From: a virus
Virus record (IMG/VR): IMGVR_UViG_3300002542_000006
Location: 4,740-68,739 of that record
Strand: one strand, 5' to 3'
Length of the DNA stretch: 64,000 nt
The notes below the pieces were generated by a model. That model made no database searches. It was not told the DNA's origin and worked only from the letters and a program-made list of their open reading frames with translations. A program made the translations under genes and the position numbers. This document shows, in pieces, positions 6,227-62,819 of the stretch (position 1 is the stretch's first letter; the number at the start of each line of letters is the position of its first letter).

Positions 6227-6439
6227 TTATCCATTTATTTCTCTTGCCACTTCTTCAATTACTCTGAAACTCCCATCTACATATTCCGCACCTTCAATGG
6301 GAAGATAATCAATATTCTCGGCGATTTGTAAAGCCTCATCAATATCCCGAGCCTTGATTCTCACATAGTTTCCTACTTCCCAGGTTATCGGAATTGTATA
6401 TTCCTTCTGTAACCATACTTTGATTTTACTTTTTGCCAC
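6227..6439 (-). CDS. Small hypothetical protein (~70 aa)
   Basis: GTG start at 6439 after GAGGAAGG, overlapping the end of the RNAP subunit gene. Confidence 0.6.
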   Translation of the reverse strand: MAKSKIKVWLQKEYTIPITWEVGNYVRIKARDIDEALQIAENIDYLPIEGAEYVDGSFRVIEEVAREING

Positions 6440-8348
6440 CGAACGGCCCTTCCTCATTTAGTTCTATTTTTATAAGCCCATTTTTGTTTCTCACATACGA
6501 CCCTGGGCTATAATCAGGTCTCGGTCTAGCTGTTATCCTGATAAGATGGAAGTTCCTCTTAATTACAATAAACCCTTTAGAATTACGCACATAAGCAGAC
6601 GAGTCCAAATTTCTTTGAACTTTTATCAGTCCACTAGATGTACGCACATACTCTGGTTTGACAATTTGAATGTAACCTTCATCATTCCTAAAATCTCTAT
6701 ACTTCAGATTGAACTTACGTTTATCATGTTCTTCTCTAATTGCCTTATAGTGAGCTTGTATCATTCCATAATACTGCTCATTTTCTTTAATTTGCTTAAT
6801 ACGTTTTCTGAGTCTCTTAGCATATGGTCTTTCAATAGACTCAGAATCCCCGAAATATCCGCCATCATAGATCTTACAGAACGGTGTTAACATACCAGAA
6901 ATTCCAGGTGAGCTCGATGAAATAGCATTAAGCTCAAATCTTCCAAGATAGCTAGGATAAATATCTCGTTGTTCATCCTTAACCTTATCAGAGGGTAGAC
7001 CCTGAATCCCTGTGAATGAAAACTTCAAGCCATTTAGCGCTTGAAGATCATTGATATCAATATTGTAACGGAATAGAGGAGAAGGTTTCCTCCCTCTGAA
7101 TAGTGACTTTATCAAAATGTGCTCATCAAATTTGAAGATTCTAGAAAGTTTTTCTTTGTCATACGGCCTCAAATTGAGGGCATAATTGACCTTATCTTTC
7201 AAGAATCTACTAAAATGAGCAGCAATATATTCATTGGTCCTTATTCTCTTATTGAGAAGAGAATTATTATCCATATTTCTCAGTTCGTTAAACTCCCTCA
7301 TCATCCAACGCAATACACAATAGATATCTGCTTTATCTTTATAGTCTATTCTCAGAGAATTCTGAGTTGCAGAATCAAGAACATTTCTAAATGATTTTAG
7401 TACATCATATCCTTTATTCAACTGATTTTTTGCAGCGGACGTGAAAAGAGAACCAAGCCTCTTTACCCATAACTCATTATCATAGATATCCTCAATTTTA
7501 TTTCTAGTATTGAAGATCTGGATAAGCATTCCGGTAAATGATCTAAAGAACGCATCATCTTCAAATAAAGTCTTTTCCGCTTCTAGAAGTATATTCGAGT
7601 TTACTTTGAAGTAATAGAATAGTTCAGGGTTTTTCACTTCAGTCACTACGTTTAGAAACTTATCATAACCAAAGAACTCGATTGTTCCCAATATTCCCTT
7701 TTTAGCAGCAAAATAGAAAATAGGATTGAATTTCTTTTTGAATAAATTTACCACGAGATTACTAATCCTAAATTCTTTACCGGAATCTACACATATAAGA
7801 ATAAATCTTTTACGCTTATCTTCTCTACTAAGTCTGAGTTGAATTCTTGACTTTAGAATCACCTCACCTTTCCGGTTATAGGTAGCATTATCAACTACCT
7901 GGAACATGGCAAGAGTCTTGTTTCCGGAAATCATGAAGTGATATCTATCTATATATTTTGGAAGAAGGATAGTATTTTCAACTTTTTCGCCACCGACAAT
8001 ATCTACAGTAAATTTTATAGCATCATAGATATCCGGTTGAACCGGAATGAGTTTTTCAATTCTATTCTTAATAATCTTCCTATTCTTGATATTCCTCAAA
8101 TTCAGACGAATATCAAGTTTTGAAGGATCTCGAATATATTCAACATCTCTTACAAAGATATCAGGAAGCATTTCGATAGATTTCAGATCTTCAGCAATAA
8201 ACTCCCAGATTTGTTTCCCTTTTCTTCTATCAAAGAGATCTTCATTGACACCAGCTTCAGTGGCCATTCTGTCTGACATCATTGCGACCATTTGGCTCAC
8301 ATAGTTTTTCGCCAATCCTATCTTCCTTCCTTTCCGCTTATAGTACAC
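6426..8348 (-). CDS. RNA polymerase beta-like subunit, N-terminal half (probably non-virion RNAP)
   Basis: 640 aa; RDIYPSYLGRFELNAISSSSPGISGMLTPF matches the beta region RDVHxSHYGRxCPIETPEGPNIGLI; C-terminal repeat tail. Confidence 0.8.
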   Translation of the reverse strand: MYYKRKGRKIGLAKNYVSQMVAMMSDRMATEAGVNEDLFDRRKGKQIWEFIAEDLKSIEMLPDIFVRDVEYIRDPSKLDIRLNLRNIKNRKIIKNRIEKLIPVQPDIYDAIKFTVDIVGGEKVENTILLPKYIDRYHFMISGNKTLAMFQVVDNATYNRKGEVILKSRIQLRLSREDKRKRFILICVDSGKEFRISNLVVNLFKKKFNPIFYFAAKKGILGTIEFFGYDKFLNVVTEVKNPELFYYFKVNSNILLEAEKTLFEDDAFFRSFTGMLIQIFNTRNKIEDIYDNELWVKRLGSLFTSAAKNQLNKGYDVLKSFRNVLDSATQNSLRIDYKDKADIYCVLRWMMREFNELRNMDNNSLLNKRIRTNEYIAAHFSRFLKDKVNYALNLRPYDKEKLSRIFKFDEHILIKSLFRGRKPSPLFRYNIDINDLQALNGLKFSFTGIQGLPSDKVKDEQRDIYPSYLGRFELNAISSSSPGISGMLTPFCKIYDGGYFGDSESIERPYAKRLRKRIKQIKENEQYYGMIQAHYKAIREEHDKRKFNLKYRDFRNDEGYIQIVKPEYVRTSSGLIKVQRNLDSSAYVRNSKGFIVIKRNFHLIRITARPRPDYSPGSYVRNKNGLIKIELNEEGPFGGKK

Positions 8349-8452
8349 ATTATCATATTCTCTATATACTTTTTATAGATAAAAAATTTTTAATAAACGC
8401 CATAGGCCGAAACCGGATTGATGTCCGGTTTCGGCTTGACGTATAAAGGTTA

Positions 8453-9157
8453 TTAAACCAATGCTTCGATAAGGCGGTCGTTCTTGATCGTTTGTTTGAA
8501 TTCTTTGCTGGGAACAAATCCGACTTCCCACTTGTCCTTCTTACGCTCAATCGTATAAGTTCCCTCTCCGGGAACTTCATACTTCACAACTTCATCCGCC
8601 GACTTGCTGTTTGCAAGTACGTGAATGATGGCTGCAATGTGAAGCGCAATGAACAGTTGAGCCGACGTCTCATCCAGTTCTACGCCACGGTCCGCCTCTG
8701 TTTTCTTTTCAACCCATTCGCCTTCCTGGACATCATATTCATCCAGTTTGCAGCAATGGATGACCGTATCCAGCAGAAGCTTGCTGTCGATAGAAGAAGC
8801 AATGGATTCAATCAGCGACACATTGTTGTACAGCTTATCTTCGAAGCTGTCCAGTTCGCTCAAGAACTTCTTCTCGTTCGTGAGACTGAACGTCGGATTC
8901 AGCGACAGAGACTCGCCGGACTTCCGTGCGACGACTCCATAAGTAAACGGGCCGATAACCAGCTGTACTTCTTCCCTGGGCTCCTGATCCATCATCAGGT
9001 ACAGCGTGCGCGGGATTGCATTCGAAATCCCCGTATCAATAATCGCCTGAAGTGCAAGGTCGATTTCTGCCTTTTTCGTTTCGCCGTTGATGTTGCGTTC
9101 GCAGTGAAACGCTTTCGAAGATACAGAATTTGTTACCTCGATAAGTTTCTTTGCCAT
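8453..9157 (-). CDS. Highly expressed early hypothetical protein (234 aa)
   Basis: ATG at 9157 after SD AGGAGGAG; early promoter and 5' stem-loop upstream; codon bias as in capsid gene. Confidence 0.75.
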   Translation of the reverse strand: MAKKLIEVTNSVSSKAFHCERNINGETKKAEIDLALQAIIDTGISNAIPRTLYLMMDQEPREEVQLVIGPFTYGVVARKSGESLSLNPTFSLTNEKKFLSELDSFEDKLYNNVSLIESIASSIDSKLLLDTVIHCCKLDEYDVQEGEWVEKKTEADRGVELDETSAQLFIALHIAAIIHVLANSKSADEVVKYEVPGEGTYTIERKKDKWEVGFVPSKEFKQTIKNDRLIEALV

Positions 9158-9232
9158 TCTAAAACTCCTCCTATTAATGAAGTTTTTATTGTAAAGACAC
9201 ACTTAGTATAAACTAATAATGTGTCTTTCACA

Positions 9233-9250
9233 CAATAATAATATATATTT
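9233..9250 (-). promoter_or_regulatory. Early-type promoter motif TATATATTAT (representative; other copies at 9336, 12005, 14636, 19111, 20365, 27562, 28203, 30943, 45885, 49294, 50703, 62864)
   Basis: 13 intergenic copies found by eye, all on the minus strand upstream of minus-strand genes; resembles the phiKZ early TATATTAC core. Confidence 0.8.
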
Positions 9251-9403
9251 GACAATTACGACGACTACAAATAGCTTATAGAAAAAATGCTACTGCATAT
9301 TACCACCTCTCGCTCGATAATATTGTTTATTAGTCAATACAATAATATATATTTGTCTTTAGTTTGCTTCAATAACTATAATTTTGAAAAATAAATATAA
9401 GTA

Positions 9404-9433
9404 GCCAGAGGGTATCATTTATAACCCTCTGGC
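9404..9433 (-). terminator. Intrinsic terminator downstream of the structured RNA
   Basis: 10-bp stem GCCAGAGGGT/ACCCTCTGGC followed by a T-rich tail on the minus strand. Confidence 0.75.
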
Positions 9434-9448
9434 CATGATATATATTAA

Positions 9449-9733
9449 GGACATGACTGCGAGATGAGCCTGATCATCAAACCCAAATTTATTTTCGCCT
9501 ACCATTCCTGAAAACCTCTTTCTGAGAGCACAGCAAAATCCTCTTCACTCTCTGCGACGGTTAATCCAATGCGATAGGATTAACCCAGACAGAAAAATCC
9601 GAGGAAATATCGCCGATTACCCCTAATATGATAGTGGGATAATTTGTGACCTCAGTTTTTCAAAGAGGCCGAGGAATGGACTCGACGATTTCATTAATTC
9701 TTGCATAATACGACTCTCTCGCAAATCATTCCC
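9449..9733 (-). ncRNA. Uncharacterised structured non-coding RNA (~285 nt)
   Basis: No convincing ORF; AACA-N6-TG promoter places +1 at 9733; 5' end pairs with 3' end (about 17 bp with bulges); further long-range helices, hairpins and a pseudoknot; G-U wobbles favour the minus strand. Confidence 0.75.
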
Positions 9734-9778
9734 AATATATTGTTCATAAATTTCCAATATTTTGCTTTTGACCCAAAG

Positions 9779-11977
9779 TCAAGAGTATTGACTGATAAAC
9801 TCTGATAGTAGCATCACAGGGATGCCTTTTTTCCTTGCAATTAATGCTTTCTTACCATCGAGTCTATCAGGAGTCACTACAAGCAAATCATATTTACTTC
9901 CTGTTTCAATAATCTTAAAATTTAATGCTTTGCATATTTTTTCAAACTCAGGATTATTCCTAAATCCTGACACCAATATTACTTTATCATAATCCTTTTT
10001 AGTATCAACACAATTTAGCAGATTCTTCAATTCGACAAATTCTTCATAGGCGTTAATAAGACCTTTGGAGAAATCTTTGGCCTTCTTATCAATACCTTTT
10101 ACCGTCTTCAATTTTTTATAGAGAACATTTTCATCTTTGGATGACATCAACTGCTCTAATTCTTTTATAGAAATTTTATCGAGAATTTTTTCAGCAGTCT
10201 TCGTCCGAAGACCCGGTATTCTCAAAAGATCTATAACTTTTGGATATTCGATAGGTGCCTTTATTTTATTTTGAAACTCATTCCAGGCTTTTTCCAAGTT
10301 TAGACCTTTGAGAACTTTAGAAAGATCTTTATATCCCATTTTTATAAACTCGATTGCATTGGATATGCCTACAATTTCCACCAAGTCATTCGCGATTTCT
10401 TCCCCAAAGAAATCGAGATTCAGAATCCGTATTGCTTCCAGGATTCTTCCTACTTTATGACCAGGACAATCTTCATTGATACATTTTAACATATCTTTAG
10501 TTACAATAAGCTCAAAATTACATTTTATGCAATGTGTTGGAAGCATAAGAGGTTCTCCATTCTTAGCCGGTTTACATGTATCATCTTTATAGATGTATCC
10601 CATAACGTCTGCATTGTAGGATACAATAACTTCATCCCCAATATGAGGATTAAGTTCTTTAAATCTTGTAATATTGTTAACCGGAGCTTTCTCATATCGA
10701 ACACCATTAAATTCAATTGGCTCGAATGTTATATTAACTCCGATAAACCCCTGCTTCCCCATAGATGGAAGTATCCCAGTGATTTTCGTTCTCTGCATCA
10801 TTGCATCGAATTTATAGGCAATTTGCCACTTGTTCTTATTACTGGATCTTCCAAGTTCATTCTTTAAAGTATGGTTAACTATACTTATAACCAATCCATC
10901 TATACTATATGGAATCTGAGATCTTTTAGATGAATATTCCTGTACTGTTTTCTCTATCTCAGAAAGAAGTTCATCAATATTTCCATACAAATAAGTATAT
11001 TCATATGGGAATTTTTCAGAACTATCAAAAAATACACAGGAGTTTCTCATTCTAATAAAGATATTTTCAAATGTTGCATCGCGATTTTTATCTAGTTTCC
11101 CATACAGATCTATAATTCTATCATCTGTAAGTAGCGGAACTAAAGTTACACACTTGTTAATCTCTATTAATTCATCTTTAGGCGTTTTCGGATTAGAGAT
11201 ACGTTTTAGGGCTGATGCAATTGCCGCCCGTCTTGTAGAGTAATTAATATTCACAATTTCACTGAGTCTTTTTCTTCCATACTCAGTCACAATTGCTTCA
11301 TATTGAATTCCCACAGTTTTAGGAAGTAATACAGTGTCAATCCAACGTATAGGATTTCTTCCAATCAAAATATTGGAGAGATCTACACCCTTATTTTCTT
11401 CAAAATTACCCCTGGTTACTGCCTTTACAGGGGTCAAAATATTTTCATTATTTCTAAACGTTATAGTTACGGATGTACCGTCGAACTTAGGGGCTATAAT
11501 AATCCCAAGTTTCTTTCTAGAAGTTTCTTTCATTATTTTTCTTAACCATTTTTCCACAGAGGGCTTATCGCTAACATTATAAACAGTATAAGCCTTATCC
11601 AAAGTACCAGCAAGTTCAGGGAAATCCTGCTCAGTACTTCTCATACCAGCTGGGATGAATGATTGAAACGGCTCTTTCCCATCATTGAGATTTTTATATA
11701 TCTCAATAAGCCTATCATACATATCATCCGGCATCAATCTATACAGAATTCCACTCATGTACTGATTTAGCTCATAAAGCGACTTAGATACTTTCAAGAT
11801 ATTCTCTAAGCCCTTTAATTCATCCACGGTTATAGATTCATCGGGTTTGAAAACTATTTCATGTAGAGTCAGCACGATCTCAGGATCTTGTAATCCTACA
11901 GCCGCTGAAGCATACTGTCCATTATCAATGTAGTTTAGTAGTCGTCCTGTTATCTTACTGAATTTAGCCATCCTCAT
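9779..11977 (-). CDS. ligA: NAD-dependent DNA ligase
   Basis: KFDG adenylation motif, DGLVI, WQIAYKF, C4 zinc finger CIKC..C..C, HhH region and C-terminal BRCT-like domain. Confidence 0.93.
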   Translation of the reverse strand: MRMAKFSKITGRLLNYIDNGQYASAAVGLQDPEIVLTLHEIVFKPDESITVDELKGLENILKVSKSLYELNQYMSGILYRLMPDDMYDRLIEIYKNLNDGKEPFQSFIPAGMRSTEQDFPELAGTLDKAYTVYNVSDKPSVEKWLRKIMKETSRKKLGIIIAPKFDGTSVTITFRNNENILTPVKAVTRGNFEENKGVDLSNILIGRNPIRWIDTVLLPKTVGIQYEAIVTEYGRKRLSEIVNINYSTRRAAIASALKRISNPKTPKDELIEINKCVTLVPLLTDDRIIDLYGKLDKNRDATFENIFIRMRNSCVFFDSSEKFPYEYTYLYGNIDELLSEIEKTVQEYSSKRSQIPYSIDGLVISIVNHTLKNELGRSSNKNKWQIAYKFDAMMQRTKITGILPSMGKQGFIGVNITFEPIEFNGVRYEKAPVNNITRFKELNPHIGDEVIVSYNADVMGYIYKDDTCKPAKNGEPLMLPTHCIKCNFELIVTKDMLKCINEDCPGHKVGRILEAIRILNLDFFGEEIANDLVEIVGISNAIEFIKMGYKDLSKVLKGLNLEKAWNEFQNKIKAPIEYPKVIDLLRIPGLRTKTAEKILDKISIKELEQLMSSKDENVLYKKLKTVKGIDKKAKDFSKGLINAYEEFVELKNLLNCVDTKKDYDKVILVSGFRNNPEFEKICKALNFKIIETGSKYDLLVVTPDRLDGKKALIARKKGIPVMLLSEFISQYS

Positions 11978-12024
11978 TCCCCTTCTTCTATTTACTTCTA
12001 TATGAATAATATATACTTTCTAAA

Positions 12025-12069
12025 AATATTATTAGGAGTGCACAGAAATCGTGCACTCCTAATAATATT
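12025..12069 (-). terminator. Long hairpin/terminator after the RNAP beta C-terminal gene
   Basis: 19-bp perfect inverted repeat AATATTATTAGGAGTGCAC / GTGCACTCCTAATAATATT. Confidence 0.7.
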
Positions 12070-12070
12070 T

Positions 12071-14158
12071 TTATCGTCTCAGTTTATCCCATCCATCAAA
12101 GAATATTTTTATAGATTTCTTATCCATACTTTTAATTTCATCCAAAAGAATATCTCTAACCTCTTCATCAGATCCTCCATATTCAAACTCTAGGGCCATA
12201 CCACATACCATAAATGTAGCATTAAATAGATCAACTACCCTAGATTTTGGATTCTTCATCTCTATACGAAGATCTTCGGAGAAAATATTTGTATGAAGAA
12301 GTTGAGAAAATTCACGCCTTCCAGTTACAGAAGTACAATAAAGTCTTGTAAAGAAATTGATGGCCGCAGGATCGTTACAGAGATTCAAGATATCCATCTC
12401 CATATTACCAATCCTGATAGCTTGGTTATTAAACAATGCTGTACCTCTGCTATATGCATGAGATTTAATAGGCAAAAATGTTCTAGGATTAATTGTACCT
12501 TTAGATCTTACAGAGAATTTCGTTATTGGCTCATGTTTAAGTCTGTAGATATACGTATCAGACATAATCATCTTACGTTGAATATTATAAACCCCTCCGG
12601 ATTTATCCATAAACGTAAACCTTTTCTTCTTAGGTTCAAATCTCTCTATAAGTTTTGAATAGTTCTTAAAGCTAATAGACATACTTGGGGGTTGGAATAT
12701 AACAAATTCTTTAGTAATTTGTGATAGGAATTCTTCCTTCTCCTCTTTATCGAGGGATTTATAGAACTCCCTTACCATTTTTTCTTGGTCGGGGTTACAT
12801 ATCGACAAGAAATCCAGAAGTGCTTCGAATTTCTTTTTCTTAGGAGCATCCCCTTCCAGAATCTGATCCACAATCCAGTTCAATTCAAGTTCATATAGCT
12901 GAGATGGATTCAGACGTCCAATGACGCTCAGAGCACTAAAGATGACTTCTACATATTCACCATCTTCACTTCTTGGCATGTATTTTTCTGGAACTATCTC
13001 GGAAACAACACCTTTATTCCCATGGCGTCCAACAAGTTTTGTTCCGACTACAGCCTTTTTCTCATTAACTACAGTTATATAGATGATTATGTCATCAAAA
13101 ATCGATCCATCATCATCCCACTTGACATGCTTCCCGATGCTCATCACATCTTTAGCGCGAGAATATGTTATACCAATTTGATCCGAATATTCATTTTCCG
13201 GGTTCCCAACAATTTCTTCAAGTGTTTCTTTAAGCTCGCGCCAATAATTGTTAATCAACTTCATATATTTCAAAATTTGGTGATTGACCTTATCAGTGGA
13301 AATTTCATCAATTGGTATATTAGAATAAATATCAATATCTACTACAGTTCCTTCTGCATAATATAGAGTATCACCAAACATCTCTTTTCTAAGATTTTTA
13401 CTTTTTAGCATATATTGTGCGTTATTATAATCAATTCTCCGTCTCCCACACAATACTTTATTTCTAACTTCCTCTCCAATATCCGGAAATGCCTTATAGA
13501 CTTCACTATTTCCGTAAAGATTGAGTAGGATATCGTTAGTATTCTTTGGGATCTTGTAAGTATTTACGTTCGTGACTTTCAATCTTTTTGCAAGTTTGTC
13601 AGAAATCCTGAATGCGTCCTCAACAATTGCTGGATCTACCATATATACGGTCTTTGCATTTATACCTAAGCGATAGTTCATATTATCATCATAGGAGCGG
13701 GATCTGTATAGGATCTCCCCCGATTTTACTTTATCTCCAACTTTCTTAGAATCAATAATTTTATTATTCATTTTTACACCAGTTGCTTCTGCAAAAGCTT
13801 CAACTTCATTCCTAAATACAATATCGTAATAATTTTTGCCAGCTTCTTTAAGAATCAAAGCATAAACAAAATCATTGTCAAATTTTCTAATCTTCTTTAC
13901 AACTTCAAAATTTTTATCAGATCTATAGTAGGAAGTCGACCTATCTCCAAACAATTTCTCATATCCAGTCACGATTCTCGGAATTTCCGGATTTTCAAGA
14001 TTTTTAGATTGTGCAATCTGTTGGAAGATCAGAGCCGCCCGAGAAGAGTTTACTTTATTCCCAATCGGTATAAATAAACCGCTTCCGAGAGCGTGGTCAA
14101 TATTTTTAATCTCACTAGCTATTCTATCAAGTTCTTCCATTTGTTCTGGTTGTAACAT
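12071..14158 (-). CDS. RNA polymerase beta-like subunit, C-terminal half (probably non-virion RNAP)
   Basis: GTKLVGRHGNKGVVS, YRLKHEP and RIGNMEMD are hallmark beta-subunit motifs. Confidence 0.92.
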   Translation of the reverse strand: MLQPEQMEELDRIASEIKNIDHALGSGLFIPIGNKVNSSRAALIFQQIAQSKNLENPEIPRIVTGYEKLFGDRSTSYYRSDKNFEVVKKIRKFDNDFVYALILKEAGKNYYDIVFRNEVEAFAEATGVKMNNKIIDSKKVGDKVKSGEILYRSRSYDDNMNYRLGINAKTVYMVDPAIVEDAFRISDKLAKRLKVTNVNTYKIPKNTNDILLNLYGNSEVYKAFPDIGEEVRNKVLCGRRRIDYNNAQYMLKSKNLRKEMFGDTLYYAEGTVVDIDIYSNIPIDEISTDKVNHQILKYMKLINNYWRELKETLEEIVGNPENEYSDQIGITYSRAKDVMSIGKHVKWDDDGSIFDDIIIYITVVNEKKAVVGTKLVGRHGNKGVVSEIVPEKYMPRSEDGEYVEVIFSALSVIGRLNPSQLYELELNWIVDQILEGDAPKKKKFEALLDFLSICNPDQEKMVREFYKSLDKEEKEEFLSQITKEFVIFQPPSMSISFKNYSKLIERFEPKKKRFTFMDKSGGVYNIQRKMIMSDTYIYRLKHEPITKFSVRSKGTINPRTFLPIKSHAYSRGTALFNNQAIRIGNMEMDILNLCNDPAAINFFTRLYCTSVTGRREFSQLLHTNIFSEDLRIEMKNPKSRVVDLFNATFMVCGMALEFEYGGSDEEVRDILLDEIKSMDKKSIKIFFDGWDKLRR

Positions 14159-14177
14159 TTACTTTTCCTCCCTTTAG

Positions 14178-14582
14178 TTATTTTAATATATAAATTTTAG
14201 CTATTTTTTCATCCCTTATGTCAATTAATATTTTTATTATTCTAATAATAGAACCTTCAGTCGTGTCATCAAATTTCTTTTCAGCTTTTCTTTGTTTCTG
14301 AATCAGATCAAAGAGACCCAATAATCTAAAATTTTTTAACTCAATTACAATATTATGATTTTGAGTTTTAAATCGTTCAAGTAGATTTAAATAAATCATG
14401 TTAAGATCTTTGGCGTCTATAATCATAGACTCACTATCTTCTAATTTTTGAAGTTTATAGCCACTCAAATAAACCTCATTAACAATTTGAATACAGCTAA
14501 GGAGCGGTAATTTATAATTAGACTTTTCTTGCAAATAACTAACATCGTTAGTAACACTATCAATTCTAATTCTAAATGACAT
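14178..14582 (-). CDS. Early hypothetical protein (134 aa) carrying a copy of the RecA N-terminal peptide
   Basis: ATG at 14582 after GGAGG; contains LGLFDLIQKQRKAEKKFDDT. Confidence 0.65.
   Translation of the reverse strand: MSFRIRIDSVTNDVSYLQEKSNYKLPLLSCIQIVNEVYLSGYKLQKLEDSESMIIDAKDLNMIYLNLLERFKTQNHNIVIELKNFRLLGLFDLIQKQRKAEKKFDDTTEGSIIRIIKILIDIRDEKIAKIYILK
14262..14323. repeat. 62-bp direct repeat, copy 1 (inside the 134-aa ORF)
   Basis: 61/62 identical to 15956-16017. Confidence 0.95.
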
Positions 14583-14662
14583 GAATAGACCTCCTAGCAA
14601 TAATAATAGGTGGATAGGAATTTATCCTATCCACACTAATAATATATATTTTTGTCGGAAAT

Positions 14663-16024
14663 TTAATAATTTTTAAACCAATATTTCTTTCTATTGAAGT
14701 CTGAATTTCCTTTAAGGAAATCCGTCCACCCTTGATTTTTGTAGAATTCAATATCCTTCTCATGTTCCTCAAGAGCCAAATACATTGAATCCAGTTTTTG
14801 AGTTTCACTTTCCGCGCCCCCCAACCGTCCAGTATCAGTTGAGAGCATTGCTTCAAGATGAGGCTTACATGCTTCATATAAAGCCTCGAGAATTTCAGGA
14901 GATTTCATTACTACATCTTTAAATGTTTTCTTAGTAAATTTCACGCTTTCTAGACCTGGTAAATAATGAGCTCGGTTGTTTCCCAAGAGAACTCCATTTC
15001 TCACTGCAAAATTAAATAGCGTTAAAGTCTTTGAAAAGCCACCCTTACGGTGATCAAACACAAGCTCAATAGGAATATTTGAGGCATTTGTGCGGGATTT
15101 AATATATTTTGCCTCTACAAGAAACCCAGGAATTCCGTATTCCATAGTATCAGGTTTGTCAGCCAAATACTTCTTAATGAGTCTAAGCTTAATAATATTA
15201 TTAGCAAGATAAAGAGATGCCATACCACCAGGCATAGATTCACCTTGAGAAAGATACATGTGTTGATTCGCCTTGGGTAAAAATCCTGTATTAACATCTT
15301 GGTTAATATGATTTACCGCAATAATTCCAACATTGGCCTTCTTACCGTAAGCCAACATTTGAGTCAATATAGCTTTATTGAACTTTGCGGATGTTGCAGC
15401 TTGCATATTGTTAGTAACATCTTCAATTTTTTTGGTTGCGATGTCAATTTCTCTACTCTTAAACATTGCAAATGAGTCTATAAGAGCGAATGAGGGATAG
15501 AGCTCCTCAATCTCTTCTCCATAAATATCATAAATTCCCGTCTTATAAGTAAACATTTTTCTATTATTAAGTTTTATATCACAGTGAGTCTTAAAAATGT
15601 CTACCACATCTTCTGCCCCTCTATCGCGATAAATCTCATATGTTTTTCTGATAATAGAGGGCTTCAATCTAGTAATAGTCAACGGGCGCTGGATAGTAGA
15701 TGCCAGCTCAAGATCAAAATGAGTTACCGCAGACATTTCACCAAATTTATGAATTCCAGAGACTGCAAGATCAATCGCAAGAGCTGTTTTACCTGTACCA
15801 GAAATTCCTATAACAGTAGCAAATGTTCCACCTACAATTCCAATTGAATCGGTTCTGGCAATAGGTCTATCATTTTCATCATATGATGTGATACGAATAC
15901 CATTAGCATAATCCAACGGAAGATGACCCGAGGGATAACTTATTTCAGTGACAACCGTGTCATCAAATTTCTTTTCAGCTTTTCTTTGTTTCTGAATCAG
16001 ATCAAGGAGACCCAATATTATCAT
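14663..16024 (-). CDS. recA: RecA/UvsX-like recombinase
   Basis: YPSGHLPLDYANG (cf. ISTGSLSLDIALG), Walker A GISGTGKT, Walker B LIDSF, AVNHI, PGG motif. Confidence 0.88.
   Translation of the reverse strand: MIILGLLDLIQKQRKAEKKFDDTVVTEISYPSGHLPLDYANGIRITSYDENDRPIARTDSIGIVGGTFATVIGISGTGKTALAIDLAVSGIHKFGEMSAVTHFDLELASTIQRPLTITRLKPSIIRKTYEIYRDRGAEDVVDIFKTHCDIKLNNRKMFTYKTGIYDIYGEEIEELYPSFALIDSFAMFKSREIDIATKKIEDVTNNMQAATSAKFNKAILTQMLAYGKKANVGIIAVNHINQDVNTGFLPKANQHMYLSQGESMPGGMASLYLANNIIKLRLIKKYLADKPDTMEYGIPGFLVEAKYIKSRTNASNIPIELVFDHRKGGFSKTLTLFNFAVRNGVLLGNNRAHYLPGLESVKFTKKTFKDVVMKSPEILEALYEACKPHLEAMLSTDTGRLGGAESETQKLDSMYLALEEHEKDIEFYKNQGWTDFLKGNSDFNRKKYWFKNY
15956..16017. repeat. 62-bp direct repeat, copy 2 (5' end of recA)
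   Basis: 61/62 identical to 14262-14323. Confidence 0.95.
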
Positions 16025-17858: not shown

Positions 17859-19049
17859 TTAAAATGCATCAAACACAGAGGAACCTCTGCCGGTTCCGTC
17901 CGACTTCCCATCCCCAGCAAGTTTCAGCGGGGAATCAGATTCCCGTTCAATCACCGGGATTCTTTCTTTCTCTTTGGCATTTTCATATTCAGCAATCCGA
18001 CGCTCGATCATTTTGAATCGATCAATCGGAGCCGCCATTCCCGACATAATCATTGCAAATTCAGGCCCTTGACCACTGTTATTCTGAAGATGTCTGAATA
18101 CGAGGCCGCTTGTCGGGATACCAGCAATCGAATTCTGCACATCATCGAATGTGGTATCAATCAGATGATAAACTTCCGGATCTGTGTTCATAAAGAATCC
18201 ATAAGCATCCGGAGAATTGGTTGTTACAGCAGTGGAATTCTCAATTGCATTTTGAATTCGCCCAATGAGATCCACATTTTCTTCAGAGACACTGATATTA
18301 AGCTTCGGAATCGTGATAACCGACATCAACCCTTTGAAGGAAGTGAGTCGAGCATAGTCACGACCGTCAATATTGCTCCGAGAGTTCTCAATAAAGAATT
18401 CTTTGGAGAGAACCCGAATAGCAGTCACAACGTCATGATTGACTTTTTCATATACCTCATCTCCGACCTTATTCCGCACCCTGTTATTATCAAACAGGAG
18501 GTACGGGATATCCAATTTGTTTTCAAGATCAGACATGAACTCCCGCATATTCTTTTGCGAGACAAGGTCTTCCTTGATCGAGCCGAGAATTCCAATCATG
18601 AAGATCATCTTGTTTGGGTACTCGGTCTTCAAGTAGGCAGCGGTCATCGGAGAGATAATTGTTCCAGTACCTCCGCCGCCGGTTCCCACGATGAAGATAA
18701 GATCGTTCTTCATCAATTCTTTAATTCCATCATGTTCAAAGAATGACTTATAAGAGCGTTTGAATTCATTTGCCGAAAATGCGCGATCTTTACCAGACCC
18801 ATTCACATTTTCGATGGCGACTTTATGATCGACATTCAAATCGACCATGTCGGCTTGGGTTGTGTTGAATGCTGCCGTTGCATAACCATCGTAATAGCTC
18901 ATCAGATGAGCAATGTTGCCGCCACCGGCCCCGATTCCAATAACACTAGCAGTCATCTTCATTTTGTAATTCTCCTTTTTAGATTGAATTTTCGAAAGAT
19001 TTTCCTTTAAGGATTGAGTCAGAATTTGACCTGCTTCTTTTTTGGACAT
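17859..19049 (-). CDS. Tubulin/FtsZ-family GTPase (PhuZ/TubZ-like)
   Basis: GIGAGGGNIA, GSGKD, GTGGGGTGT signature, T7-loop-like NIDGRD; acidic/flexible C-terminal tail. Confidence 0.92.
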   Translation of the reverse strand: MSKKEAGQILTQSLKENLSKIQSKKENYKMKMTASVIGIGAGGGNIAHLMSYYDGYATAAFNTTQADMVDLNVDHKVAIENVNGSGKDRAFSANEFKRSYKSFFEHDGIKELMKNDLIFIVGTGGGGTGTIISPMTAAYLKTEYPNKMIFMIGILGSIKEDLVSQKNMREFMSDLENKLDIPYLLFDNNRVRNKVGDEVYEKVNHDVVTAIRVLSKEFFIENSRSNIDGRDYARLTSFKGLMSVITIPKLNISVSEENVDLIGRIQNAIENSTAVTTNSPDAYGFFMNTDPEVYHLIDTTFDDVQNSIAGIPTSGLVFRHLQNNSGQGPEFAMIMSGMAAPIDRFKMIERRIAEYENAKEKERIPVIERESDSPLKLAGDGKSDGTGRGSSVFDAF

Positions 19050-33504: not shown

Positions 33505-33539
33505 ATGGAATGGCGGGTCAGAAATCCCGCCATTCCATT
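33504..33539. terminator. Bidirectional terminator
   Basis: 14-bp stem AATGGAATGGCGGG/CCCGCCATTCCATT between convergent genes. Confidence 0.8.
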
Positions 33540-35449
33540 TTGTTTTTGAAGAAATTATGATTTATATGAATAGGTATAAAACCTTTCTCATTTCTCACAT
33601 ACTTATCATCTTTATTATAATTCTTGAAAATAGTATCCAATTTTTTCTCTTCATCAATATTTTGAGTTCTTTTCTCCACTTTTTCCTGTACAGCTTTTCT
33701 TCCATTAATAATTTCCCCTAAGAAATTAAAGTCCTTTACAACATCTCCGCCTATAACTTCATTAGTTTGAGTTTTAGTAGGAAGTTCCTTAACTTCTCTT
33801 TTCTTTGGTCGTCCTCTACTTATGACATCTTTTTCAGCTTTAAGTTCGTCAAGAGTTTCTCTGGACAAAGGTTCATCCAGATGAATATCATACATAAGTT
33901 TTATCCCATTCTCGGGTTCTAATGGATGGGCGAAGTAATCACTAAACTTATTTTTTCTATTCTTACTTCTACTCGTCCGTTGTTTCATATTTTTAAATGT
34001 CATATATTCATAACCATTATCATCAATTTCTTTATTGATGGCAATGGCAGAGTCTACGTTCTTTAGAATAGCATATGCTTCAGACACATGTGCTTTTCCA
34101 AGAAGTCTACCTATATCATATTTATTGGAGTCACCTTCGATAGCGTCCGCTGCTTTTCTATTAAATTGACCTGCCCCAATTACAGGAATTTCCAATCTCT
34201 TTGCAAGTACTGAATAATCATTTGCAACTTCGGCTAATTCGAATCTAATTTCCTGATGATTCTTTGAAGATCTGATCCGTTCAATATAGTCATGGATAAC
34301 GACAATAACTTCACGACCAGTATCTTCAATATCACTAATAATAGAATACAAGTCAAGAGTCGAAATTTCTTTATCGTCATAATATTTGATAATAATATCT
34401 ATATCTTCCTCAGTTTTAAGAGACAATTCCCCTTTAGTTCTCAGAAGTTTAGCAACTTCTGAAGGAGTGTAATTCCGGATGTCATCTCCGGTAACTTCCA
34501 TATTAAATATACGCTCAACAGTCTCATCAACTGTATTTTCTTGCGAAATATATAATGCAGCCGGTCTTTTAGATGGATCTTTTGGCTTCACCAAATTACA
34601 TTTCTTAATAGCAATCAAAAGATTAAGAAGTAATACAGATTTACCTACACCTGTAAGACCGAAAAACAAATAAGAACGTTTCTTCTCAAATCCACCATTT
34701 AGCATTATATTTAATGCTTGGATGCCTGTAATAAGTTTATTGCTCGGATCTCTTAATTTCTTTACAATCTGCTTTACTTTATCCTCGAATGAACCATCTG
34801 TTAGATCCAATGTAGTTGTATCATCCGAAAAATTCTCAGCATTTCTTATATCAAAAAGTAGATTCGTAAGTACTTCCTTGATTCGATGATTTATTTGACT
34901 AAGATTTTTATAATTATGGGATTCAAGATCTTCAAAAATCTCAAACAATTCGTCTTTATATGAAAATACGAACCCATGAATTAACCTATCGACCACATAT
35001 GAATTCAAATATTGAGTCATCCGTGAATTCAATTTTATCTTATTGAATTCCGGAATAATCTCCTCTCTAGCCAAATTCGAATTCTCACAATTTTCTAAAG
35101 CATAATTCATCAAAATTTTCTTATTATCAAATCCCATATGCAGACGAGCTTCTAGCATATGGGATAAAAGATCAATTCTTGCCCTAAGTGCAGGATTGTT
35201 CTTATAAAGATTTTTATTACACATCATTATTAAGGTATACATATTATTAAGAGCAGATCTAGTTATAAATTGATTATCTACATCGTAAGCATAAGCAAGA
35301 AATAAATCTAATATCTCTATATCAAATTTAATCGGGATTTTTTTATATTTAACCCCCGGATTTGGTTTCACATTCCCTACAGTTCCTTTAGAGATATTTG
35401 TATCCTCTGGATATTCATGAGGAAGGTTCTCTTCAATAATATCCATCAT
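33518..35449 (-). CDS. DnaB-like replicative helicase
   Basis: Walker A GLTGVGKS, ISQEN, Walker B IHDYI, AGQFNR; long C-terminal tail. Confidence 0.88.
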   Translation of the reverse strand: MMDIIEENLPHEYPEDTNISKGTVGNVKPNPGVKYKKIPIKFDIEILDLFLAYAYDVDNQFITRSALNNMYTLIMMCNKNLYKNNPALRARIDLLSHMLEARLHMGFDNKKILMNYALENCENSNLAREEIIPEFNKIKLNSRMTQYLNSYVVDRLIHGFVFSYKDELFEIFEDLESHNYKNLSQINHRIKEVLTNLLFDIRNAENFSDDTTTLDLTDGSFEDKVKQIVKKLRDPSNKLITGIQALNIMLNGGFEKKRSYLFFGLTGVGKSVLLLNLLIAIKKCNLVKPKDPSKRPAALYISQENTVDETVERIFNMEVTGDDIRNYTPSEVAKLLRTKGELSLKTEEDIDIIIKYYDDKEISTLDLYSIISDIEDTGREVIVVIHDYIERIRSSKNHQEIRFELAEVANDYSVLAKRLEIPVIGAGQFNRKAADAIEGDSNKYDIGRLLGKAHVSEAYAILKNVDSAIAINKEIDDNGYEYMTFKNMKQRTSRSKNRKNKFSDYFAHPLEPENGIKLMYDIHLDEPLSRETLDELKAEKDVISRGRPKKREVKELPTKTQTNEVIGGDVVKDFNFLGEIINGRKAVQEKVEKRTQNIDEEKKLDTIFKNYNKDDKYVRNEKGFIPIHINHNFFKNKMEWRDF

Positions 35450-47732: not shown

Positions 47733-49250
47733 TTACTCATCGTCGTCTTCGTCGCTGCCAAAATACTCCTTCTCGTAGTCTCCGTTGAAGTCATTGAGAG
47801 GGGTAGTATTCATGCAGGTAACGATCAGCTCAGTCTCTTCGTCATGATCGACTTCCAGAATATTCTTCATATGCTCTTTCAGATTGATATGAACAATAGT
47901 TTCACCCATCGACATTACAATCCATGGATCTTTCTTAACCTCTTCAAACTGAAGAGCAATGTGAACTTCATTGTCATTAGTCCCAGATCTGTAGATTTGA
48001 ATATTGTTTTCAGTACAGATAGAAACCATATCTCTGATTTCCTCGTCATCGCCCAACTCCTCAGGGCTAATTTTCTGTTTGACATCCTTCAGAGCATCAA
48101 CAACATGAGGAAACCTTGCAAAGAACAAATCCCTTACAATTTTATCAGATTCTTCAGAATTGTCAGAATTAATGAGATTGAAAGCATCTGTTAACTCCAT
48201 GAGTTTTCGTTCTCTTTCAAGACTCTCATCCTTCTTCAAGACATCTATCCCCCTAGATGTAGAATAATAGGTGGAGATAGGTCTTTTGGGACGGTTACGA
48301 ACCGGTGGAGTTTCTTCCGGGACGGATTTTTCTATTTCCTGATCCTCAGGAACATAGAGTTTTTCCTCGGATGATACGCCACCAGAGAGCCGTTTAAGCT
48401 TCTGCAGAACAGATTTGTTCAAATTCTCCTCTTCTCCTTTCATATTAGTTCTATTGGATATAGCCACGAACTGTTTGAGTGTGGCTCTATCTCTATGCTT
48501 ATTAAAATTCTTATAAAACTCATCCAATTCTTTGGATGGTTTATACTTCGGAATCTTGACATTGTCTTTGTATTTAGTTTCAGTATATCCTTCAAGGACA
48601 ACATCAATCCGAAAGACATTTTCACATTTATCACATTCCAGCATAGTAAAATCGTTATTATAGCGAAGTTTACCTTTACAATATTTCTTCTTCTCCCCAT
48701 CTCCCTTATACCGAACATGAGGACAAGAGAAATTGCCCAATGACTTCAGTTCTACATAACCGAAGTCGATAATTCTAATCCTTCCTTTTCTATCGACTCC
48801 GTAGTTTTTATGCTTATCGAGACCAAGGTCGATAAGAATGAAACCTTCTTCATCCAGTCTTTCGAGCATCCGACGGATCTTCTTTTTGGTCTCTTTTTTC
48901 TGAAAATAGTCGAAATCAATAGTCGGACACTTTTCCTGAACCAGGATAAGGCCCTCTTCATCGAGCTCATACGAGGTTGCGAAATCCTCGCTCAAACTCG
49001 ACTTGTGGAATTCATTCAAATTGTCGAGAATTCCCTGAGGATCAAAACCGACCTTGAAAACCACCTTCGGATAGTCTTTATGCGTATAACATACCCGGTT
49101 AGTTCCCGAATCAAGCGGCTTCAATCCATTTTTCTTCATGAGCTTATCAATCTTATCCGCCTTCTCTGGATAATTCATGGACGAGTCGGCCCATTTGAGA
49201 ATTTTCTCAAAGACTTCATCGGGGAAAACGTCATTCAGAATTTTTCCCAT
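47733..49250 (-). CDS. Protein kinase-like protein with zinc finger and acidic C-terminal domain
   Basis: LDSGTNRVCY (Gly loop), VVFKV, LIDLGLDKHKNYG and IIDFGY; CPH..C..CDKC; early promoter 49294-49309; start refined to 49250. Confidence 0.78.
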   Translation of the reverse strand: MGKILNDVFPDEVFEKILKWADSSMNYPEKADKIDKLMKKNGLKPLDSGTNRVCYTHKDYPKVVFKVGFDPQGILDNLNEFHKSSLSEDFATSYELDEEGLILVQEKCPTIDFDYFQKKETKKKIRRMLERLDEEGFILIDLGLDKHKNYGVDRKGRIRIIDFGYVELKSLGNFSCPHVRYKGDGEKKKYCKGKLRYNNDFTMLECDKCENVFRIDVVLEGYTETKYKDNVKIPKYKPSKELDEFYKNFNKHRDRATLKQFVAISNRTNMKGEEENLNKSVLQKLKRLSGGVSSEEKLYVPEDQEIEKSVPEETPPVRNRPKRPISTYYSTSRGIDVLKKDESLERERKLMELTDAFNLINSDNSEESDKIVRDLFFARFPHVVDALKDVKQKISPEELGDDEEIRDMVSICTENNIQIYRSGTNDNEVHIALQFEEVKKDPWIVMSMGETIVHINLKEHMKNILEVDHDEETELIVTCMNTTPLNDFNGDYEKEYFGSDEDDDE

Positions 49251-49336
49251 AGTATTCTTCCTTTCTCTTTCCAAATTCGTCGTTCTTTACATTACAATAA
49301 TATATATTTCAATAACAGTTGGAATTTTACTAATAT

Positions 49337-62561: not shown

Positions 62562-62819
62562 TTACTTCTTTTTACTTTTAGGAGATTTTGAAGGTTTTTG
62601 ATGAAAAAATCCATTATAGAAGATAGCAATATGACCACTATCAGTTCTACCATAACCGCCAATTATCTTAGTGGTTACAATATCATCATCTCCATTTACT
62701 ACAATATTATGCACTTCTTTCGCTTTTTTCTCAATATCTTCAGGAGAGAAACCAAACACATCTGTTTGAAGCATCTTCATAATAACACTCTTATTCACAT
62801 CTTTAACAGCTACAGACAT
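62562..62819 (-). CDS. Small early protein with YxRxxxGxIxI motif
   Basis: SD GGAGG; early promoter 62864-62882; YGRTDSGHIAIFYN; basic tail. Confidence 0.7.
   Translation of the reverse strand: MSVAVKDVNKSVIMKMLQTDVFGFSPEDIEKKAKEVHNIVVNGDDDIVTTKIIGGYGRTDSGHIAIFYNGFFHQKPSKSPKSKKK

What the first reader, a model, noticed from the sequence alone, without database searches (positions are those of the whole stretch)
6460..6695. Peptide motif YxRxxxGxIxI shared by the RNAP beta-N tail (x4), the DnaB tail and an 85-aa early protein
Seen: the RNAP subunit ends in four spaced copies, FRNDEGYIQI, YVRTSSGLIKV, YVRNSKGFIVIKRN and YVRNKNGLIKI. The DnaB C-terminal tail has YVRNEKGFIPIHIN (33569-33601). 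The 85-aa early ORF 62562-62819 has YGRTDSGHIAIFYN. All sit in flexible tails outside the catalytic folds. Inference: a phage-specific docking motif, analogous to clamp-binding or SSB-tail motifs, that brings transcription and replication machines to a common partner (clamp, DNA or a compartment-import factor). The small early protein could act as a competitor or adaptor.
Basis: partly seen in the sequence, partly recalled or inferred. Interest (0 to 1): 0.72.

Follow-up and report, generated by a model that had tools for sequence, protein, structure and literature searches.

The report
Shared beta-hairpin motif on phage DNA machines
A short peptide that probably folds as a beta-hairpin (about Y-V-R-N-x-x-G-F/Y-I-x-I) is really there, far above chance, in the tails and linkers of the phage RNA polymerase, the replicative helicase and several other DNA-handling proteins of one group of uncultured giant phages related to Bacillus phage AR9; it looks like a shared tether, but what it binds is unknown.

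Summary
All six copies lie at the stated coordinates. Shuffling predicts 0.06 regex matches and 4 occur in long ORFs. A profile built only from relatives' polymerase tails scores the window's DnaB tail at 15.6 bits, against 8.9 for the best background hit.

The motif is conserved in orthologous tails down to 27-29% protein identity. It is absent from AR9 and four other cultured relatives. An exact-pattern scan of all IMG/VR viral contigs found it in long ORFs only in this clade.

The 85-aa ORF scores at background against the profile. It is still a diverged member, because its orthologue in a more distant relative carries a canonical copy (25 bits).

Whole relatives show more carriers: an SF2 helicase (a clean 28-aa insert), an 'HNH'-type DNA-binding protein, a PC4-like protein, and K/E-rich and coiled-coil proteins. 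All carriers with a recognisable function handle nucleic acids.

AlphaFold2 gives isolated hairpins at low confidence, inside strongly basic tails. No family, solved structure or paper matches the motif.

Best reading (about 0.45): a modular hairpin that docks on one common, unidentified partner. Main rival (about 0.3): an auxiliary nucleic-acid-binding hairpin. No phage clamp gene was detected. A tubulin-like gene shares the motif's distribution, which counts as one contrast only.

The parts
6426..8348 (-). Gene for the N-terminal half of the non-virion RNA polymerase beta subunit (640 aa), orthologue of AR9 gp105
   Evidence: tblastn best cultured hits are AR9 g105 and Staphylococcus jumbo-phage nvRNAP beta. 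phrog_2943 covers residues 266-520.
6429..6788 (-). Clade-specific C-terminal extension of beta-N (residues 521-640): a helical hairpin followed by four motif copies; net charge about +10 over the last 95 aa
   Evidence: AR9 gp105 is 496 aa and has no such tail. AF2 gives helices at pLDDT about 80-92 and the motif region at 44-63. Charge.
6663..6695 (-). Motif copy 1 (DFRNDEGYIQI)
   Evidence: Positionally conserved in all 18 orthologues.
6618..6650 (-). Motif copy 2 (YVRTSSGLIKV)
6561..6593 (-). Motif copy 3 (YVRNSKGFIVI), the best-scoring copy
   Evidence: 19.7-21 bits.
6465..6497 (-). Motif copy 4 (YVRNKNGLIKI, followed by ELNEEGPF..KK); present only in the nearest subclade
33518..35449 (-). 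DnaB-like replicative helicase gene (643 aa)
   Evidence: Pfam divDNAB and DnaB_C, phrog_19.
33569..33601 (-). Motif copy in the DnaB C-terminal tail (YVRNEKGFIPI)
   Evidence: 15.6 bits against a profile that contains no DnaB copy. Conserved in DnaB orthologues of near, middle and far clades.
62562..62819 (-). 85-aa protein: two predicted helices, a hairpin, and a lysine-rich SPK-type tail
62622..62654 (-). Diverged motif copy (YGRTDSGHIAI)
   Evidence: Background profile score. Aligned with the canonical copy of the G006 orthologue, with Y, R, G and I invariant. AF2 predicts a hairpin at 53-58/64-68.

Best explanation
The motif [YFH]-[VI]-R-[ND]-x-x-G-[FY]-I-x-[IVL], often followed by x-[RK] or by x-L-N-x-x-G-x-F, is a small autonomous beta-hairpin module. 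One strand carries Y-V-R. The turn is N-x-x-G, a type often seen with Asn or Asp first and Gly last. The second strand carries [FY]-I-x-I.

The inferred geometry puts an aliphatic face (V/I, I, I/L) on one side and an aromatic and cationic face (Y, R, F/Y) on the other.

The module has been inserted as a cassette into flexible tails and linkers of several DNA-transaction proteins of one clade of uncultured AR9-like jumbo phages. The most likely job is to dock all these proteins on one common partner, either a phage protein or the hairpins of each other. That would gather the late RNA polymerase (3-4 copies, so multivalent), the replicative helicase (one copy per subunit, six per ring if it is hexameric like other DnaB-family helicases), an SF2 helicase and small DNA-binding proteins at the same place on replicating phage DNA. 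The 85-aa protein would then be a small client or competitor.

Shown: the motif exists, is non-random, is conserved, is restricted to the clade, and has a defined set of carriers. Inferred: the hairpin geometry, the docking function and the existence of one partner.
For: Enrichment and profile separation from background.

Conservation across orthologues from 97% down to 27% identity, with variable spacers and indels around invariant R, G and I.

Carriers in complete relatives. G001: nvRNAP beta-N x4, DnaB, SF2 helicase, a 125-aa 'HNH'-PHROG DNA-binding protein, the 85-aa orthologue and a K/E-rich protein. G006: RNAP x3, DnaB, the 81-aa orthologue, a PC4-like protein, a coiled-coil protein and the K/E-rich protein.

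Modular gain and loss. The SF2 helicase has a clean 28-aa insert in the near clade only. The fourth RNAP copy is near-clade only. The PC4-like tail is canonical in G006 and degenerate in G001.

Copies are kept at the protein level, not by recent DNA copying: 41-67% nucleotide identity, and 42 of 86 identical residues use the same codon.

The aliphatic positions are conserved, and the turn is neutral to acidic (mean charge -0.04 near clade, -1.27 far clade). That fits docking on a protein better than insertion into DNA.

The consensus shifts in parallel in RNAP and DnaB of each clade: N/I in the near clade, D/L in the far clade.

AF2 models the copies as isolated hairpins at low confidence rather than as a domain.

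The motif is absent from five cultured relatives and from the rest of IMG/VR. About 13 real clade-restricted conserved genes, the tubulin-like and kinase-like genes among them, could supply a partner.
Against: No partner was identified and no binding test could be run.

Every carrier with a recognisable function already binds nucleic acid. The hairpins sit in strongly basic sequence (+10 to +18 over the last 95 aa of the RNAP tail, and basic flanks on both sides). Both facts suit direct DNA or RNA binding equally well.

The parallel N-to-D and I-to-L drift could partly reflect base composition, 35% against 41% G+C.

Other replication proteins in the window lack the motif: ligase, two topoisomerase II subunits, a UvsX-like recombinase, an exonuclease and other RNAP subunits.

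The structure models are of low confidence, with alignments of only 6-18 sequences.
Confidence: 0.45

Rival explanations
1. The motif is an auxiliary nucleic-acid-binding hairpin. In this reading the aromatic and arginine face (Y, R, F/Y) contacts bases or a groove, and the basic flanks contact the backbone. It would work like an AT-hook, or like the RNP1-type strands of cold-shock and RRM domains. It would give extra grip on DNA or RNA to enzymes that already act on them. No protein partner is needed.
For: All carriers of known function are nucleic-acid proteins: RNAP, DnaB, SF2 helicase, an 'HNH'-PHROG DNA-binding domain, and a PC4-like protein at Pfam E=0.002.

The tails are strongly basic with basic flanks.

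The 85-aa family follows its hairpin with a K-rich, SPK-type tail.

Copy number varies from 1 to 4 and the position is free, as with AT-hooks.

By eye the motif resembles K-G-[FY]-G-F-[IV] of RNP1 and cold-shock strands (sequence reading only).
Against: The turn is neutral to acidic; E is the commonest residue at +2, and far-clade turns read DED or DDD.

Three aliphatic positions are as conserved as the polar ones, which is unusual for a lone DNA-binding hairpin.

Pfam finds no CSD, RRM, HU or AT-hook match, even at E up to 1.

The information content, about 11 constrained positions, is much higher than in known low-specificity DNA hooks.

In the PC4-like protein the hairpin follows an acidic linker, the usual layout of a protein-binding SSB tip.
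Confidence: 0.3
2. The motif is a local structural or oligomerisation element with no shared target. Each hairpin packs in cis on its own protein, or several copies form a small sheet or barrel (four in the RNAP tail, six in a helicase ring). In that case the similarity reflects reuse of one stable building block.
For: Strands in the RNAP tail are joined by short turns with an invariant proline, compatible with a beta-meander.

The copies at tail ends continue with a second N-x-x-G turn and an aromatic residue, suggesting a three-stranded unit.

The Atlas feature search gave weak look-alikes among Rpb2 domain 4/5 fragments, at 0.85-0.90, which is lead level only.
Against: AF2 does not assemble the RNAP copies into a domain; pLDDT is 44-63.

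Single copies occur at extreme N- or C-termini after flexible or acidic linkers.

Beta-C of this phage is collinear with AR9 gp089 from its first residues, so the tail is not a displaced piece of the canonical beta fold.

The same precise sequence kept in eight or more unrelated host proteins argues for a common constraint.
Confidence: 0.12
3. The matches are chance or compositional look-alikes with no shared function.
For: The 85-aa copy taken alone is at background by profile score. A further regex match somewhere in the contig has about a 6% chance.
Against: Observed counts exceed expectation 60-fold. Profile scores of 11-25 bits stand against about 9 at most for background and about 7 at most for reversed controls. 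The motif is conserved to 27% identity. A canonical copy sits in the 81-aa orthologue.
Confidence: 0.02

Closest known systems
C-terminal sliding-clamp-binding tails of phage T4 gp43, gp33 and gp55 (and the Mu late activator)
   Same: One short peptide shared by replication proteins and RNA-polymerase-associated proteins. It sits in flexible tails and ties late transcription to the replisome through one hub (PMC2988020, PMC7892883, PMC12867686).
   Different: The sequence differs and is predicted to be a hairpin, not a hydrophobic C-terminal tip. Here it is on the polymerase subunit itself and in 3-4 copies. No beta-type or gp45-type clamp gene was detected in the clade. The partner is unknown.
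Acidic C-terminal tips of SSB proteins and of T7 gp4 and gp2.5 (from my own knowledge of these systems)
   Same: Tail motifs after flexible linkers that several replisome proteins use on a common binding site. The PC4-like carrier has an acidic linker followed by the motif.
   Different: The motif is not acidic, is not confined to the extreme C-terminus, and also occurs at N-termini and in a helicase linker. In those systems the hub carries the tail; here the clients do.
AT-hook and SPKK-type DNA hooks
   Same: A small unit in disordered basic regions of many unrelated nucleic-acid proteins, in 1-4 copies at free positions.
   Different: There is no G-R-P core. Information content is much higher. 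A conserved aliphatic face and a neutral to acidic turn are present. There is no Pfam match.
BRC repeats of BRCA2, hairpin peptides that dock on RAD51 (from my own knowledge)
   Same: Tandem short hairpin repeats in a disordered region, with an aromatic residue and two aliphatic residues at similar spacing, and with multivalent binding to an oligomeric ATPase.
   Different: There is no F-x-x-A signature. No test against the phage UvsX-like recombinase was possible. UvsX is also present in AR9, which lacks the motif.
Protein import into the chimallivirus phage nucleus (PicA/Imp1)
   Same: Selective gathering of replication and transcription proteins in jumbo phages.
   Different: In chimalliviruses, targeting is reported to depend on surface residues of the folded cargo, not on a terminal signal sequence (PMC12908238). 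Whether this clade builds any compartment was not tested here.

Membership tests
Sliding-clamp-binding peptide (T4 gp45-binding tails; bacterial QL[SD]LF type) | A clamp is available as hub (phage-encoded in T4) | tested here: not met
   Pfam DNA_pol3_beta (PF00712) and DNA_PPF (PF02916) gave no match at E<=1 in G000, G001, G006 or G005. PF00712 rang in 11 of 14 control genomes; PF02916 rang in only 1 of 14, below its cut-off. A host clamp cannot be excluded.
Sliding-clamp-binding peptide (T4 gp45-binding tails; bacterial QL[SD]LF type) | Short hydrophobic consensus (Q-L-x-L-F, or a C-terminal L/F-rich tip) | tested here: not met
   The consensus from 56 copies is xxY[VI]RNxxG[FY]IxIxR. It has no Q-L-x-L-F pattern.
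SSB-type acidic C-terminal tip | Acidic run ending in a C-terminal aromatic or hydrophobic residue | tested here: not met
   Mean motif charge is 0 to +1.2, and copies occur internally and at N-termini. Separately, the near-clade DnaB ends in E-W-x-[DE]-F after the motif.
AT-hook (Pfam PF02178) | G-R-P core flanked by basic residues | tested here: not met
   The motif has no GRP. Pfam gives no match at E<=1.
Cold-shock domain / RRM RNP1 strand | Membership of an OB or RRM fold detectable by profile | tested here: not met
   Pfam at E<=1 gives no CSD or RRM match on P0001-P0003. The PDB profile search gives only chance hits at E>1. The resemblance is by eye only.
Canonical RNAP beta 'external' domains (Rpb2_4/5, Rpb2_45) | The tail corresponds to a canonical beta segment moved across the split site | tested here: not met
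   Atlas look-alikes score 0.85-0.90 with few shared features. Own beta-C (12071-14158) aligns with AR9 gp089 from residue 15/5 to 657/647, so the split site is the same and AR9 has no counterpart of the tail. The tail gives no significant BLASTP match to either beta-C.
BRC repeat | F-x-x-A followed by a hairpin; binds a RecA-family recombinase | not testable with these tools
   Position +3 is N or D, not A.
Short linear docking motif (general class) | Lies in disordered regions; is conserved while flanks vary; occurs in unrelated proteins; is gained and lost quickly | tested here: met
   Low pLDDT. Invariant R, G and I amid indels. Eight or more carrier families. Gain and loss between clades. 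The class also requires a partner, which was not shown.

The most novel reading that the evidence does not exclude
The tandem hairpins are a linear localisation signal that tethers the late (non-virion) RNA polymerase, the replicative helicase and accessory DNA proteins to a clade-specific hub. The most striking candidate is the phage tubulin-like filament, in the way microtubule-binding repeats tether cargo. That would build a replication and transcription factory and couple late transcription to replication. The tubulin-like gene is present in all three motif-bearing clades and was not detected in the cultured relatives that lack the motif. This is a single phylogenetic contrast, and about a dozen other genes share it.
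Probability: 0.1. Interest if true: 0.85.

Novelty: new variant of a known kind. Interest (0 to 1): 0.55.

Why it matters
Shared docking peptides organise replisomes and, in T4 and Mu, tie late transcription to replication. Almost nothing of this kind is known for jumbo phages that carry their own multisubunit RNA polymerases. In nucleus-forming phages no linear targeting signal has been found.

Here one well-defined peptide marks a small set of proteins: the late polymerase, two helicases, and proteins that bind ssDNA or dsDNA. That gives a concrete handle, a peptide bait, for finding how these phages bring transcription and replication together.

If the rival reading is right, the motif would instead be a new compact nucleic-acid-binding hairpin that evolution has used as a portable add-on.

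Tried and rejected
1. phmmer of the tail (residues 535-640) against 1.84 billion representative proteins found only orthologues and one spurious repeat protein.

2. Pfam and PHROGs found nothing on the tails. A PDB profile search gave chance hits only, such as papain-family G-Y-I-K-L at E>1.

3. My first profiles scored the 85-aa ORF at background, and I nearly dropped it. The canonical copy in its G006 orthologue reversed that.

4. I considered a shifted split site, with the tail being a piece of canonical beta, prompted by the Atlas hits. Collinearity of beta-C with AR9 gp089 rejects it.

5. I checked whether copies 1-2 are simply the canonical G-F-[IL]-E-T-P-Y-R-K-V segment of beta. By eye that segment is already present at residues 497-513 (GYF...RPYAKRL), upstream of the tail (and my own knowledge of the E. 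coli beta sequence).

6. Recent DNA duplication as the source of the similarity is not supported.

7. No phage-encoded sliding clamp was detected as a possible hub.

8. The clade's structured RNA (window 9449-9733) as co-occurring partner: a homologue lies next to the beta-N gene in G001 but was not detected by nhmmer in G006 or G005. This is inconclusive.

9. AF2 models of the RNAP tail and of the 85-aa protein were too weak (pLDDT 62 and 58) for a fold search, so none was run.

11. The search of earlier findings by sequence returned nothing.
Full report
WHAT IS THERE

The window is 64 kb of a 78.7-kb contig with 35% G+C, estimated 37% complete. It comes from an uncultured jumbo phage related to Bacillus phage AR9.

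ORF 6426-8348(-), 640 aa, is the N-terminal half of the non-virion RNA polymerase beta subunit. Its best cultured matches are AR9 g105, annotated 'non-virion RNAP subunit, beta N-terminus', and the Staphylococcus jumbo-phage nvRNAP beta. The PHROG model ends at residue 520.

The DnaB-like helicase 33518-35449(-) matches Pfam divDNAB and DnaB_C up to residue 538. It has one copy at 33569-33601, 27 residues before its end. The 85-aa ORF 62562-62819(-) has YGRTDSGHIAI at 62622-62654.

IS IT MORE THAN CHANCE?

The regex Y.R...G.I.[IVL] matches five times in all six frames of the contig, and only in these three proteins. Shuffling the ORFs of 100 aa or more gives 0.063 expected matches against 4 observed.

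I built a 16-column profile from copies in relatives' RNAP tails only, with no sequence from this genome and no DnaB copy. It scores the window's four RNAP copies at 11-20 bits and the DnaB copy at 15.6 bits. The best other hit in 86,000 six-frame residues scores 8.9 bits. Reversed-sequence controls of G000, G001 and G006 reach about 6-7 bits.

At the DNA level the copies are 41-67% identical. Identical residues share a codon in 42 of 86 cases. So the likeness is maintained at the protein level and is not a recent DNA duplication.

CONSERVATION

Orthologues of beta-N from 97% down to 54% identity keep three copies in register. Those nearest to the window keep the fourth as well. Two more distant orthologues at 29% identity also keep three copies. 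In the 18-sequence tail alignment the invariant columns of the repeat region are R, G and I of copy 1, a proline, R and G of copy 2, and R and G of copy 3. The spacers vary and carry indels.

DnaB orthologues keep their single copy while the flanks change. In the most distant genomes RNAP identity falls to 27% and DnaB identity to 31%. Both tails there still carry hairpin-like copies with a shifted consensus, such as .RD[ED].G[FY]I.L or [RT]D..GF..L.

Position +1 is N in 19 of 23 near-clade RNAP copies and D in 9 of 12 far-clade copies. Position +8 is I or V in 23 of 23 near-clade copies and L in 10 of 12 far-clade copies. DnaB follows its own clade. This parallel shift is suggestive of a common constraint. 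Part of it could be compositional, because G+C is 35% in the near clade and 41% in the others.

THE 85-AA ORF

Against the profiles the 85-aa ORF scores 0.2-1.9 bits, which is background. Its close orthologues keep Y-G-R-[TS]-x-x-G-[HN]-I-A-[IV].

In the complete, terminally redundant genome G006 (215.8 kb) the orthologue is an 81-aa protein. It matches at 48% identity over 66 residues with the same N-terminal region. At the aligned position it carries YVRNENGFIRLTR, which at 25 bits is the best-scoring copy in that genome. Another G006 protein ends in YARTESGHIKLVRRR, so the R-T-[DE]-S-G-H-I variant recurs. I therefore accept the 85-aa copy as a diverged member.

AF2 on the six-sequence family gives two helices and a hairpin at 53-58/64-68. 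Mean pLDDT is only 58, and the hairpin is the best-scored part at about 70.

WHO ELSE CARRIES IT

I fetched three whole relatives and scanned all frames.

- G001 (246.9 kb, near clade): RNAP beta-N x4; DnaB; an SF2 helicase (ResIII/DEAD), with the motif in the linker before the second RecA-like domain; a 125-aa protein matching 'HNH endonuclease' PHROGs only over an N-terminal DNA-binding-type region, with the motif at its C-terminus; the 85-aa orthologue; and a 429-aa K/E-rich protein with a copy near its N-terminus.
- G006 (middle clade): RNAP x3; DnaB, with the motif at the very end; the 81-aa protein; a 138-aa PC4-like protein (Pfam PC4 E=0.002, below the curated cut-off) with an acidic linker and the motif at its C-terminus; a 180-aa basic coiled-coil protein; and the K/E-rich protein.
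- Far clade: RNAP, DnaB, and two proteins of unknown function with N-terminal copies.

The SF2 copy lies in a clean 28-aa insertion that the G006 and G005 orthologues lack. Nothing new appeared after one round of profile iteration.

In the window, the following have no copy: the ligase, two topoisomerase II subunits, the UvsX-like recombinase, an exonuclease, a polynucleotide kinase and the other RNAP subunits.

RANGE

The same profile search finds nothing at E<=10 in AR9, Staphylococcus phage MarsHill, Listeria phage LPJP1, Yersinia phage phiR1-37 or Bacillus phage BpSp. It found 1-7 copies in each of the eight relatives' records searched, though only one weak hit (E=0.015) in the far-clade record G005.

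An exact back-translated pattern for YVRN..G[FY]I.I was scanned over all IMG/VR viral contigs. It returned 14 stretches. The five that lie in long ORFs and read Y-V-R-N all belong to this clade.

A phmmer search of the tail against 1.84 billion proteins found only orthologues. Pfam, PHROGs and a PDB profile search gave nothing. I found no paper on it.

THE RNAP TAIL IS AN ADD-ON

AR9 gp105 has 496 residues and ends shortly after the conserved G-x-L-T-P-F segment. The window's beta-C (12071-14158) is collinear with AR9 gp089 from residue 15/5 onward. The split site is therefore the same, and the tail is not a displaced piece of canonical beta. That tests, and does not support, the weak Atlas look-alikes among Rpb2 domain 4/5 fragments.

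AF2 on the 18-sequence tail alignment gives a confident helical hairpin with pLDDT up to 92. After it come small isolated hairpins at pLDDT 44-63.

ANATOMY AND MECHANISM

The column statistics and the AF2 strands fit a two-stranded hairpin with an N/D-x-x-G turn. By inference this gives an aliphatic face (V/I at -1, I at +6, I/L/V at +8) and an aromatic and cationic face (Y at -2, R at 0, F/Y at +5).

Copies at tail ends continue with x-L-N-x-x-G-x-F-x-x-K or a shorter form, which may be a third strand.

The RNAP tails carry +10 to +18 net charge in their last 95 residues. The flanks of each hairpin are basic, while the turn itself is neutral in the near clade and acidic in the far clade.

WEIGHING THE READINGS

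The carrier set and the basic context favour direct nucleic-acid binding. Four things favour docking on a structured partner: the conserved aliphatic face, the non-basic turn, the high information content, and the layout of acidic linker plus terminal motif in the PC4-like protein. I put docking on a common partner at about 0.45, which includes hairpin-to-hairpin association or recognition by a phage enzyme such as the kinase-like protein. I put direct nucleic-acid binding at about 0.30, a purely local structural role at about 0.12, and chance at about 0.02.

CANDIDATE PARTNERS

No beta-type or gp45-type clamp gene was detected in four genomes of the clade.

Seventeen G001 ORFs have homologues in both G006 and G005 but no BLASTP match in AR9, and about four of them look like antisense shadows. 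The rest include the tubulin-like gene, the kinase-like gene, a Cas4-like exonuclease, a transglycosylase, a crotonase/ClpP-like protein, the K/E-rich carrier and several unknowns.

The tubulin-like gene is present in all three clades and was not detected in the cultured relatives. That amounts to one phylogenetic contrast only.

COMPARISON WITH KNOWN SYSTEMS

In logic, the closest known system is the set of T4 clamp-binding tails shared by the DNA polymerase and the late-transcription proteins gp33 and gp55 (PMC2988020, PMC7892883). In form, the closest are SSB-type tails, AT-hooks and BRC-type hairpin repeats. The motif meets none of their defining sequence features (see the membership table). 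In nucleus-forming jumbo phages, cargo targeting is reported to use surface residues rather than a terminal signal (PMC12908238).

VERDICT

This is a real, conserved and clade-restricted hairpin module shared by the late RNA polymerase, the replicative helicase and other DNA-handling proteins. Its sequence is new. Its kind, a shared tether peptide, is known. Its partner is unknown.

Noticed in passing
window 33521-33535 (-): After its motif copy, the near-clade DnaB ends in a conserved E-W-[RQ]-[DE]-F tip. It is acidic and aromatic, reminiscent of SSB and T7 gp4 tails. The tip is absent from the G006 and G005 orthologues.
   Followed up: partly
window 17859-19049 (-): The tubulin-like gene has homologues in all three motif-bearing clades (72%, 58% and 28% identity). 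It was not detected in AR9, MarsHill, LPJP1, phiR1-37 or BpSp, either with the protein itself or (BpSp excepted) with Pfam Tubulin.
   Followed up: partly
window 6426-16024 (-): The gene order UvsX-like recombinase, small ORF, nvRNAP beta-C, NAD ligase ... nvRNAP beta-N matches AR9 g086-g105. The beta split site is the same as in AR9.
   Followed up: yes
window 14178-14600 (-): The 140-aa ORF next to the recombinase gene matches the N-terminus of the G001 recombinase (81% identity over 21 residues).
   Followed up: partly
L098:14157-14570 (G006 166157-166570): A 138-aa PC4-like protein (Pfam PC4 E=0.002) has an acidic linker and a C-terminal motif copy. AR9's PC4-family protein g093 is only 78 aa. 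The G001 orthologue has a degenerate tail ending in ..K-K-N-G-L-F.., like the end of the RNAP tail.
   Followed up: partly
L027:364-1959 (G001 179379-180974): The SF2 helicase (ResIII/DEAD) of the near clade carries a 28-aa insert with one strong and one weak motif copy, between its two RecA-like domains. The G006 and G005 orthologues lack the insert.
   Followed up: yes
window 9449-9733; G001 148012-148239: The clade's structured RNA has a homologue in G001 (nhmmer E=1e-9) just upstream of the beta-N gene. It was not detected by sequence in G006 or G005.
   Followed up: partly
window 62562-62594 (-): The 85-aa protein ends in K-P-S-K-S-P-K-S-K-K-K, an SPKK-like lysine-rich tail. Orthologues end in ..K-G-K-K-K.
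   Followed up: no
window 47733-49274 (-): The kinase-like gene is among the few genes conserved in all three clades without an AR9 homologue. Its G001 orthologue gives a weak PHROG hit to a T7-type protein kinase (E=5e-4).
   Followed up: partly
window 6227-6457 (-): A 76-aa ORF overlaps the end of beta-N by 32 nt and matches no family. AR9 has a 72-aa ORF (g106) in the same position. Homology between them was not tested.
   Followed up: no
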